A DNA stretch of 63,962 nucleotides, counting the filler, from Candidatus Woesearchaeota archaeon (GTDB lineage Archaea > Nanobdellota > Nanobdellia > Pacearchaeales > UBA284): the NCBI GenBank assembly GCA_964354405.1. It is 6 parts of 3 records of this genome, joined end to end, with 100 filler letters (N's around TTAATTAATTAA, not from the genome) between each part and the next. Parts side by side here need not be neighbours in the genome. Positions count along the whole stretch, not along the records: positions 43,615 to 57,227 come from CAYGZP010000001.1; positions 57,328 to 62,387 come from CAYGZP010000002.1; 4 more parts are not named here. One strand, given 5' to 3'. The position numbers are program-made. Positions 56,201 through 59,011 of the stretch are shown here, piece by piece. Each line of letters begins with the position of its first letter. The stretch's first letter is position 1.

Positions 56201-59011
56201 TTTACAGGCAAAGAAGATTCATACAGGGTTTATATTGAGCAATTGTTTAGATTTTTTGAAAAAATTGAAGCCACAACTTTTCTTACCACAGAAACAAAAC
56301 AAATTCCAGAGATATTTTCTGCAACAGGTGTTGAGGAATTTCTTGCTGATGGGGTTGTTGTTCTTTATAATATAAAAAGAGGAGAGGCAAGGGAAAATGC
56401 AATAGAAGTTTTAAAAATGAGGGGCGAGAAGCATCAAAAGAGGATTGTTGCAATGCAGATTACTAATAAGGGAATTGTAGTTTATCCTGAACAAGAAGTT
56501 TTTGGCGGGCTTGGAGAAGAAGAATAAAAAGCTTTAAAAATCAGTAGAACTTAAGCAAATAAGGAAAAAGAGGTAATCAAAATGTCACAAAAAAATAATT
56601 TATCTAAAAAATCAATCCCTTCCGTTGTAATTGAGGGGGGGGGGGCGAGAGAAGAGATGGTAAAAAACATGGATAGGATTTTTAAAGGAAAAATAGCGAG
56701 GAAAATAATAAAAGATAGACATTTTAAAGGAAAAATAGCGAGGAAAATAATAAAAGAGGGGGCTGTTGTTTTAATTGTCGTTCCAGCTAAAAAACTTATT
56801 GAAATAAATACTAATATTCTTAAATGGTATGTATGTGAAAAAAAATATAACGCAGTTTATGTAACAGTAAACAAGCCTTTTTCTACTCTAATAGAACACT
56901 TTCAAAAGGAAAAAATAGAAACAAGCAAGATATTTATTATTGATGCTATAAGTCCTGGAACGCAAAGGACAGGAAATGCGATATTCATAGGCTCTCCAAA
57001 AGAGCTGACTAATATTTCAATAAGTACAACTTCTAAACTTGAACAGCTAAAAACCGCCAAAATACTTATTTTTGATTCAATAAGCACACTTTTAGTTTAT
57101 AATCACTTTGAAGTAGTAAAGGAGTTCATTCATTATATATCAAACAAGATGAAAGAATTGAAAATAACTTTCGTAATGACTTGCATTAAAGAGATGACTG
57201 ATGAAAAAACAATTGCTGAATTAAGAGNNNNNNNNNNNNNNNNNNNNNNNNNNNNNNNNNNNNNNNNNNNNTTAATTAATTAANNNNNNNNNNNNNNNNN
57301 NNNNNNNNNNNNNNNNNNNNNNNNNNNTCATCTTGCGATGTCTGACGTACAGTCTCTGAGGATTTTTCTTTTCCAAAAAGAAAAGAAATCTTTCCTGCGG
57401 ATTGTCTGCATCCATAACATTTTTACGCGAACCAACTTTATAAAACTTAATAAATAATAAATTTTACAAAACTGTCGTCGTAGTTTGGAATTCTCAGATT
57501 TTCCCGCATATAGTCAAATTTTACTAAGGCTGCGTTATGCGTCCAACCTTAAGAGCCTCACAGTTAGGCCCGCCGTTTCACGGGTCTTAGCTCCCTTGAA
57601 AAGGAGTTTTAAACACCGCGACTGGGCAGGTCTCACCAAGTGTACGAGTCCTTTCGGATTAGCACTTGGCTACGTTTTTGATAAACAGTCGGGCGATCCT
57701 TGTTATTGAAACCTACTTTCGCATCTAAAAAATTTCTAAACACGAATATAGGCATCCCTTCTACCGAAGCTACAGGACTAATATGCCGAATTCCCTTACC
57801 AGCTTTAAGCTTGCAGATCTTTGCCTTCTCAGCAAGAGCACTAGTGCAAGTTCTAGGTACGATTGCTTAATATCTCCACTCTTGACTTTTCACGGACTCC
57901 AGGAATCAACAAACTTTAGTTCCTATGATTCAGCTATATCTCATCATTACGATACTCCACAGCTTTCTCATAAGAAATGTCTTTGCAGATACATTCTGTT
58001 TATCCCGAAGTGTCCTCAAGAACTTTAACGATATTACGCAGCGCATGAATATTAACATGCTTCCCATTCCCGTGTCTCAGTTAAGAACACAGTTAGGATC
58101 GACTAACCCTCGACTAATCGATATTGTCGAGGAACCCTGTCTCTTACGACCCTTACGGCTCCCACGTAAGTATGATCCTACTAGCGCCAGGATTTTCATT
58201 ATTACTCGGTCCACTCCTTCTTACGAAGAAGCTTCTGTCCAAGCAACACGCCTGCTTACCTGTTTTTCCCGAAGGAAAAACACAAGAGTCTCGGTAGTTA
58301 ACTTAGCCCCGTCAATCTTCAGTGCCCTGATTCTCGATAGGTGAGCTGTTACGCTTTCTTTAAAGGGTGGCTGCCTCTGAGCCTACCTCCCCACTGTCTC
58401 AGAATCAAGACTCCTTTCAGCGCACTTAGTTAACATTTTGGGACCTTAACTCTAGTCTCCGTTGTTCCGGTTTCGGTGTACAAGCTTACCCCGCACACCT
58501 GTTTCCCTTGTTGAATCGCTACCACATTCGGAGTTGGAAAGGACACCGACGAGAAGACTCGCCTGCATGTCCCATCCGTGGCTCTACCATGATAGCCGAC
58601 TATTAACAAGAGGCTATACCAAAGTATATTTCAGCAGGAACCAGCCATCGCCAAGCTAGATTGGCTTTTCACCCCTACTCACAAGTCATCAAAGCACTTG
58701 CCCATAGCACTTGCTCGGACCTCCACTCCCCGTTGGGGAAGCTTCATCCTGCTCGCGAGTAGATCGCTTGGTTTCAGGTCTGATGCTAGTGACTAATGCC
58801 AGTTAAGACATTGTTCCTTTCTTGCGATACGAACATTTGCTTTCGCTATGGTTCCCTCACAGAGTGAATTAACCTCGCCACTCGCACCAACTCCCTGGCC
58901 CGTTTTCCAAAACGTATGTTACAACTTTTTTTCTTGCGAATTAAAGCAGTAACTAACTATAACTGTTAGATTTCAGGTCTTTGCACTCCTCGCTAGAGGT
59001 GCTTTTCAACA

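What a model noticed while it worked through the whole genome (the two positions that open the first line are those of the whole stretch)
57328..57599. Two 23S alleles with different helix-69 sequences and different group I introns at L1923
The end of C2 holds a second group I intron at the same 23S site as the known C5 intron, behind a helix 69 with a rewritten stem and a G at loop position 1916, while C5 has the canonical helix. I read helix 69, otherwise nearly invariant, as diversified in Pacearchaeales by an arms race with endonucleases that home to L1923. Homing-driven change of a decoding-centre helix would be new.
Evidence so far: C2 GGGCC-UAACUGUGA-GGCUC against C5 GGGGG-UAACUAUGA-CCCUC, different introns; Rfam Intron_gpI E 2e-9 at C2:1-249. 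Among 13 relatives' alleles: 4 compensated stem types and A, G, U or C at 1916; 5 have an intron at this site, on both main stem types. A contig of another run carries the C2 allele with its intron.
(Added by a program. Inside this text positions count along the whole contig: they may not be those of the stretch shown here. "Call 12" and the like, gene names such as g00115 and contig names such as C1 are that model's own, and its searches are not shown. The text may have been shortened before it was handed on; [...] marks where a part breaks off. The agent that wrote the report below was given it as the finding of a first reader that could run no searches.)

Follow-up and report, generated by a model that had tools for sequence, protein, structure and literature searches.

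The report
Helix 69 variants matched to introns
This tiny archaeon's assembly holds two versions of a key ribosomal hairpin (helix 69), each followed by a different group I intron at position 1931, not 1923; across its order the hairpin comes in 17 fully paired versions, introns at 1923 always match the host's version, and invading introns likely swap versions between lineages, whereas an arms race remains untested.

Summary
The two alleles are in the assembly, but both introns sit after U1931, not at L1923. C2's helix 69 (GGGCC stem, G1916) is the normal allele of the genus. The odd one is C5's canonical helix, which, with its intron, resembles a distant genus: a co-converted allele or a mis-join, about even odds. 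Neither intron shows an endonuclease gene. Helix 69 is not invariant: 159 alleles of the order give 17 fully paired types, mostly inherited by clade, and position 1916 varies in several other archaeal groups. Still, a refined link to homing holds. True L1923 introns occur in 22 alleles, always with a guide sequence matching the host stem. Their LAGLIDADG enzymes split by stem type (12 on GGGGG, 3 on GGGCC, 2 on GGCGG). One GGGCC allele with its matching enzyme sits inside a GGGGG genus. I read this as near-neutral stem variation that homing reshuffles by co-conversion, filtered by splicing. Escape from cleavage (the arms race) is possible but unshown, about 20%. The scan noted L1931 introns on other DNA before, but not this allele pattern.

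The parts
57546..59509 (-). 5' exon of the single 23S rRNA gene (positions 1-1931); the 3' exon lies on contig C5, outside the window
   Evidence: Rfam LSU_rRNA_archaea starts at 59509; no second copy of either half in the assembly
57553..57571 (-). Helix 69 (1906-1924), GGGCC/GGCUC stem: pairs 1909-1921 and 1910-1920 are C-G instead of G-C; the usual allele of this genus
57561..57561 (-). G at loop position 1916 (A in 141 of 158 alleles on the order's tree)
57546..57546 (-). U1931, last exon base and 5' splice site (U-G pair of P1)
   Evidence: numbering from PMC2602781
57328..57545 (-). Group I intron B at L1931, first 218 nt, cut by the contig end in P8; short P6 extension, longest ORF 30 aa
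57525..57530 (-). Internal guide sequence GCCUUA, pairs with exon UAAGGU (P1)
57503..57518 (-). 5' strands of P3 (57518-57513) and P4 (57508-57503)
   Evidence: helix names from recalled group I anatomy
57396..57401 (-). 3' strand of P4
57329..57355 (-). 5' strand of P7 (57355-57351), 3' strand of P3 (57346-57341), P8 hairpin (57340-57329)
59901..61591 (-). Upstream part of the operon: 16S rRNA (60144-61591) and a tRNA with anticodon UGC (59901-59972)

Best explanation
Both G000 introns sit at L1931 and show no endonuclease gene, C2's helix 69 is the usual allele of its genus, and across the order the helix stem is a fully paired, likely near-neutral polymorphism that homing introns at L1923 and L1931 probably carry between lineages as short co-converted exon tracts. 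Shown: the site, the allele distribution, equal folding energy, mostly clade-wise inheritance, and the match of guide sequence and endonuclease family to stem type at L1923. Inferred mechanism: an endonuclease from an intron-bearing donor cuts an intron-free 23S gene; repair copies the intron and some flanking exon. At L1923 the intron's P1 must pair with helix 69's 3' strand, so a jump into the other stem type would only be viable if both strands of the donor's stem come along; this would keep intron lineage, enzyme lineage and stem type together and convert rare stems instead of entering them (G219 is the best case). At L1931, P1 does not involve the stem, so conversion is optional: absent in C2, G028 and G014, possibly present in C5. 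C5's first 55 nt and intron A look like genus g45 on a g1 background; I put a real converted allele at about 50%, an assembly mis-join at about 40%, and other strain mixtures at about 10%.
For: One locus: C1 and C5 share a 55-nt overlap; C1 and C2 share one protein pair over 45% identity; gene order C2-rRNA-C5 is kept in G003 and G038; both exons are closest to G038 (91.4%, 95.7%). 22 of 22 L1923 introns have a guide matching their own stem, none the other. L1923 LAGLIDADG proteins: 12 family A on GGGGG (10 in order genomes, 2 on stray Pacearchaeales-like contigs), 3 family B on GGGCC, 2 of a third group on GGCGG/C1916; three loci fetched after the pattern was seen all fitted. G219 (GGGCC, family B) nests in GGGGG genus g35 and keeps g35-like sequence up to just before the helix. 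C5's 54-mer is identical to two g45 genomes, its intron core is closest to g45's G387 (87%, best of the 37 others among 38 of 59 introns scored), and it shares a rare U at exon-2 position 50 with G387 (9 of 128 alleles). 0 of 158 alleles has a mismatch at these pairs; both pairs flip together on 7 terminal branches against 1.3 expected. Co-conversion of flanks is an established part of homing (PMC3943268, passages).
Against: Joint flips are not special to helix 69: it ranks 4th of 39 stacked pair sets, and three other stems show an equally strong excess. Only 4 of the 7 double-flip tips carry an intron, against 77 of 156 overall. G034 and G127 swapped without an intron. C5 may be a mis-join, and no reads of the source sample were laid. 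Intron A carries a 69-aa membrane-like ORF whose relatives lie on GGGCC hosts. Family B rests on three genomes. Neutrality and cleavage were not tested.
Confidence: 0.55

Rival explanations
1. Arms race: stem flips and non-A 1916 alleles spread because they resist L1923 endonucleases, and family B arose as the counter-move on GGGCC.
For: L1923 introns: 15 of 71 canonical, 7 of 49 GGGCC/A1916, 0 of 39 other alleles, 0 of 17 non-A 1916 alleles (Fisher p 0.002 with kin not independent and three loci picked for having the intron; within three mixed genera p 0.045). Pairs 1909-1921 and 1910-1920 flip 15 times each, rank 15 of 276 covarying pairs and joint top of 51 G-C-rich pairs. Families A and B are 36-40% identical and differ strongly in the strands after the LAGLIDADG motif. 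I-Vdi141I and I-PpoI are intolerant of change at position -7 of their site, which is 1920 by that paper's numbering (PMC2602781 section 10). Flips and L1923 introns co-occur by lineage: none of either in 94 listed genomes of sister orders apart from one stray contig or in 46 genomes of another phylum.
Against: The splicing filter predicts the same sorting with no resistance. The family with the most varied helix (f1) has no L1923 intron in 14 alleles. GGGCC stems and non-A 1916 occur in intron-free records of other groups, and two L1923 introns sit on C1916 alleles in another phylum. At L1931, the site that matters for G000, there is no clear depletion on minor alleles (10 of 39 against 49 of 117, p 0.09) and family C sits on G1916 alleles. 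Only four lineages were compared.
Confidence: 0.2
2. No role for homing: helix 69 drifts by ordinary compensatory change in fast-evolving small-genome archaea with one rRNA operon, introns merely adapt their guides, and C5's end is a mis-join with a co-occurring g45-like organism.
For: Allele changes on the tree: 38 against a shuffled mean of 77, so inheritance is largely vertical. The intermediate GGGCG stem exists (10 alleles). C5 ends exactly one base into the intron-or-exon branch point of a k=55 graph, C2 dead-ends in its intron, and the first 49 nt of exon 2 are shared across genera. Other helices show the same joint flips. Sister orders also vary in the stem, by transitions.
Against: G219 joins a foreign stem, a foreign intron lineage and a foreign enzyme family on a 0.06 branch inside a continuous contig. 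A mis-join in C5 needs G000's own exon 2 to carry the same rare U50 as the donor type.
Confidence: 0.25

Closest known systems
Archaeal IB4 group I introns at LSU/1931 and LSU/1923 (Nawrocki, Jones and Eddy 2018, PMC6125680; passages and Table 1 seen)
   Same: Same sites, same hosts (Pacearchaeota rows at both 1931 and 1923), LAGLIDADG genes in about half of their 39 introns
   Different: The passages seen do not deal with helix 69 alleles, guide-stem matching, or cargo other than LAGLIDADG
I-Vdi141I (archaeal L1927 intron) and I-PpoI, which recognise DNA overlapping helix 69 (Nomura et al. 2008, PMC2602781; abstract, passages and section 10 seen)
   Same: Endonucleases that read positions 1915-1938, with specificity tuned to which stem base the host group carries; natural stem variation in archaea is noted there
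   Different: There the enzyme adapts to a constrained rRNA; here several stem alleles segregate within one order with separate enzyme families, and alleles appear to move sideways
I-CeuI (site in PMC2790883, passages; its L1923 origin is recalled)
   Same: Single-motif LAGLIDADG whose 26-bp site covers the helix 69 loop and 3' strand; families A and B match its PDB chain 2ex5 at E 1e-12 and 2e-18
   Different: Targets the bacterial-type stem; not among the closest matches, so families A and B are not shown to be orthologues
Thermotoga, Synechococcus and CPR L1931 introns (PMC1995217; PMC11270868; passages)
   Same: Same site; the order's L1931 family C is a single-motif LAGLIDADG_1 protein
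   Different: G000's two introns show no such gene
WHO element and FBA1 arms race in Torulaspora (bioRxiv 10.64898/2026.08.13.744650; abstract and passages)
   Same: LAGLIDADG enzymes paired with host-gene alleles that travel with the element
   Different: There allele-specific cleavage and positive selection were measured in a protein gene; here the host is a structural RNA and neither was measured

Membership tests
Group I intron at LSU 1931 | Insertion after U1931 with U-G pair in P1 | tested here: met
   numbering; both introns
Group I intron at LSU 1931 | P3-P4-P6-P7-P8 core | tested here: met
   Rfam RF00028 E 1.8e-11, 2 bits under the gathering score because cut; motifs located in both introns
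Group I intron at LSU 1931 | P7 3' strand, P9 and terminal G | tested here: inconclusive
   Present in C5's intron; beyond the contig end for C2's
Group I intron at LSU 1931 | Self-splicing | not testable with these tools
   needs RNA
Group I intron at LSU 1931 | Subgroup IB4 | not tested
   no subgroup models on hand
Group I intron at LSU 1923 | Insertion after U1923, guide pairing with helix 69's 3' strand | tested here: not met
   G000's exons continue to 1931; 22 other alleles do meet it
Autonomous homing intron | Intact homing endonuclease gene in C5's intron | tested here: not met
   Only a 69-aa ORF with no Pfam or NCBIfam match; no PF00961 in the assembly
Autonomous homing intron | Intact homing endonuclease gene in C2's intron | tested here: inconclusive
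   None in the 218 nt held; the rest is missing
Endonuclease-target arms race (WHO/FBA1 type) | Enzyme families paired with target alleles | tested here: met
   L1923: 12, 3 and 2 without exception; not so for L1931 family C
Endonuclease-target arms race (WHO/FBA1 type) | Target evolves faster than comparable sites | tested here: inconclusive
   Columns at the 68th-74th percentile, 1916 at the 53rd; pair flips rank 15 of 276; joint flips rank 4 of 39
Endonuclease-target arms race (WHO/FBA1 type) | Allele-specific cleavage | not testable with these tools
   needs an assay

The most novel reading that the evidence does not exclude
In Pacearchaeales the DNA of helix 69, the main bridge between the ribosomal subunits, is shaped by selfish introns: stem flips and 1916 changes spread as cleavage-escape alleles, a new endonuclease family (B) with a rewritten guide re-targeted the flipped stem, and homing moves whole helix alleles between genera, with G000's two alleles a swap caught in one population.
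Probability: 0.2. Interest if true: 0.82.

Novelty: new variant of a known kind. Interest (0 to 1): 0.5.

Why it matters
Homing endonucleases are thought to pick rRNA sites because the host cannot change them. Here an order of archaea varies that site freely within base-pairing limits and has intron and enzyme lineages matched to each version. This gives a ready test set (three enzyme groups, 17 natural targets) for asking whether rRNA can escape its parasites, and natural evidence on which helix 69 positions the ribosome tolerates (1908-1910, 1913, 1915, 1916 and partners). If tracts move with introns, this part of 23S also misleads phylogeny and assembly in these archaea. I found no paper on the allele-matching pattern in searches; that library lacks most subscription journals, and supplements were not read.

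Tried and rejected
An E. coli 23S look-up for numbering found nothing; a published anchor was used instead. The one metagenome scan, meant to find L1923 introns on C1909 stems, was badly designed: of 119 loci nearly all were bacterial-type alleles with no insertion at 1923, one repeated G283's allele and one (L388) was a bacterial-type insertion not followed up. One search returned the same phylum sample as and adds nothing. No run held the source sample (best share 0.63); RNA contigs cannot show splicing; reads on the C5 end are lacking, so the C5 junction stays open. The 69-aa ORF found only itself in the large protein search. One paper on endonuclease binding sites was not held. Rejected: C2 and C5 as different species; C2's allele as the derived oddity; joint flips as proof of conversion (control); I-CeuI orthology.

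Full report
Observation. The window is a chain of contigs; C2 of the bin begins at 57328 and carries 16S, a tRNA and the 5' part of 23S on the minus strand. C2's helix 69 reads GGGCC-UAACUGUGA-GGCUC and C5's GGGGG-UAACUAUGA-CCCUC; the contigs overlap by 54 nt with 5 differences, all in the helix. Both hairpins fold at -6.9 kcal/mol. Each is followed by a different group I intron: 218 nt cut in P8 on C2, 626 nt complete on C5.

The site is 1931. Both exons continue through CUUAAGGU, P1 pairs UAAGGU with GCCUUA, and C5's exon 2 resumes at AGCG after a terminal G. Nomura et al. number this stretch 1915-1938 (PMC2602781), which makes the last exon base U1931. Introns at both 1923 and 1931 are listed for Pacearchaeota by Nawrocki et al. 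2018 (PMC6125680), so the intron itself is a known kind.

One locus, two alleles. C1 and C5 share a 55-nt end overlap; C1 and C2 share only one protein pair above 45% identity; neither 23S half has a second copy; the order C2-rRNA-C5 is kept in both same-genus genomes; and both exons are closest to G038. G003 and G038 have C2's helix and no intron. So C2 is native and C5's end is the stranger: its 54-mer is identical to two genomes of genus g45, its intron core is closest to g45's G387, and it shares a rare U at exon-2 position 50 with G387. C5 stops one base into the intron, where an intron-free allele would branch off, so canonical helix and intron A are probably linked in reads; the link from intron A to G000's exon 2 is the weak one, because the first 49 nt of exon 2 are shared across genera. 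A mis-join would need G000 itself to carry the rare U; a homing event with co-conversion explains it directly. Without the source reads I leave it near even. Neither intron shows an endonuclease: intron A has a 69-aa membrane-like ORF of no known family, and PF00961 is not found in the 98%-complete assembly.

How variable is helix 69? Of 401 genomes of the order, 138 matched the first pattern and 153 the second. After dropping false hits and adding three loci from a second draw, 159 alleles give 17 types; canonical 71, GGGCC with A1916 49, others 39. None has a mismatch at the variable pairs. Types follow the 23S tree (38 changes against 77 shuffled). The columns are moderately variable (68th-74th percentile; 1916 at the 53rd), but as base pairs 1909-1921 and 1910-1920 flip 15 times each, rank 15 of 276. 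Outside the order: 94 listed genomes of sister orders vary only by transitions in the stem and have 4 non-A 1916 (counted by hand); 46 of 46 true matches in the phylum of G787 have the GGGGG stem, with C1916 in 12; the phylum of G789 has mostly a GGCGG/C1916 helix; 119 loci with non-A 1916 span many archaeal groups, and GGGCC also occurs in records titled Parvarchaeota and Woesearchaeota. The helix is therefore not invariant, but the order is unusually varied.

Link to introns. L1931 introns are in 59 of 156 alleles, on all main stems; their main enzyme family (12 genes) sits on GGGGG nine times but also on GGGCC and on two G1916 alleles. True L1923 introns are in 22 alleles: 15 canonical, 7 GGGCC/A1916, 0 of 39 others (19 of 156 without the three picked loci). 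All 22 carry a guide that matches their host's 3' strand. Their LAGLIDADG proteins split by stem: family A on GGGGG (12), family B on GGGCC (3, in three genera; 100/100 support, with a long-branch warning), a third group on GGCGG/C1916 (2). G219 lies inside a GGGGG genus yet has the GGGCC stem, a B-type intron and a B enzyme, with genus-typical sequence right up to the helix.

Mechanism. Shown steps: site, allele spectrum, guide-stem and enzyme-stem matching. Inferred: homing repair copies flanking exon (established for other introns; PMC3943268). At L1923 an intron entering the other stem type could splice only if the donor's 3' strand came too, and the helix would pair only if the 5' strand came as well; with one rRNA operon other outcomes would be lost. 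This filter alone gives the observed sorting and the lack of L1923 introns on rare stems. Against a large role for conversion: both pairs flip together on 7 tips against 1.3 expected, but three other stems do likewise, and only 4 of the 7 carry an intron against 77 of 156 overall. For escape selection: known helix-69 enzymes are intolerant of change at 1920, and flips co-occur with L1923 introns by lineage; but family f1, the most varied, has no L1923 intron in 14 alleles, and no cleavage was measured.

Comparison and verdict. The introns are ordinary members of the L1931 group I kind and fail the test for L1923 and, for C5, for autonomy. The allele-matched intron and enzyme lineages work like the enzyme-target tuning described for I-Vdi141I and I-PpoI and resemble the WHO/FBA1 conflict, but allele-specific cleavage and selection, which define an arms race, were not tested. 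I found no paper on this pattern (searches; supplements not read). Earlier notes of the scan cover single introns at 1911, 1917, 1923 and 1931 in other genomes, not this pattern. Novelty: new variant of a known kind; interest 0.5; arms-race reading 20%, interest 0.82 if true.

Noticed in passing
L001:5455-5661 (-); also L026, L075, L151, L414: A 62-73 aa protein family with two hydrophobic stretches and no Pfam match is carried as cargo by five 23S introns at two sites (L1931 and L1923) in different genera, including C5's intron; a weaker copy lies in L128.
   Followed up: partly
L079, L080, L414, L114, L130, L125, L010: Other non-endonuclease cargo in stretches read as 23S introns of the order: NYN-domain genes (3), a ParE-like gene with a partner, a PIN gene with a partner, a HIT gene, DUF2283; L114 and L010 are cut, so their intron limits are unsure.
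   Followed up: partly
L030:736-1236 (-), L140:822-1343 (-): Related 167-174 aa ORFs with a weak HYExAFE match sit in an L1931 and an L1923 intron in place of LAGLIDADG; possibly another nuclease type.
   Followed up: no
G000:C2 about 55627-56206 (L417), outside the window: tRNA-Asn(GUU) with a 506-nt intron whose 3' part matches Rfam group I (E 5e-21) and whose 5' part holds a roughly 110-codon Cys/His-rich ORF; a tRNA-Ile with an 89-nt intron lies nearby.
   Followed up: no
L048, L049 (G198, G295): U instead of A at loop position 1913 in two sister genomes.
   Followed up: no
L036 (G034): Intron-free canonical helix, five changes from its sister G042 on a 0.028 branch, with few differences in the flanks.
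   Followed up: partly
phylum of G789: Many alleles change 1925 and 1929, and about ten have insertions after 1927-1928, next to helix 69; a second lineage for testing target escape.
   Followed up: no
window 57900-58250: Contigs of runs X1, X2 and X4 share 15-19 differences from C2 here but are nearly identical in 58345-59339, hinting at a recombined 23S tract or mixed relatives.
   Followed up: partly
L139, L147, L158, L406: Four alleles carry introns at both 1923 and 1931, leaving an 8-nt exon.
   Followed up: no
G000 small contigs C8, C20-C50: About twenty short contigs have 52-73% G+C against 37% for the main ones, likely contamination of the bin.
   Followed up: no
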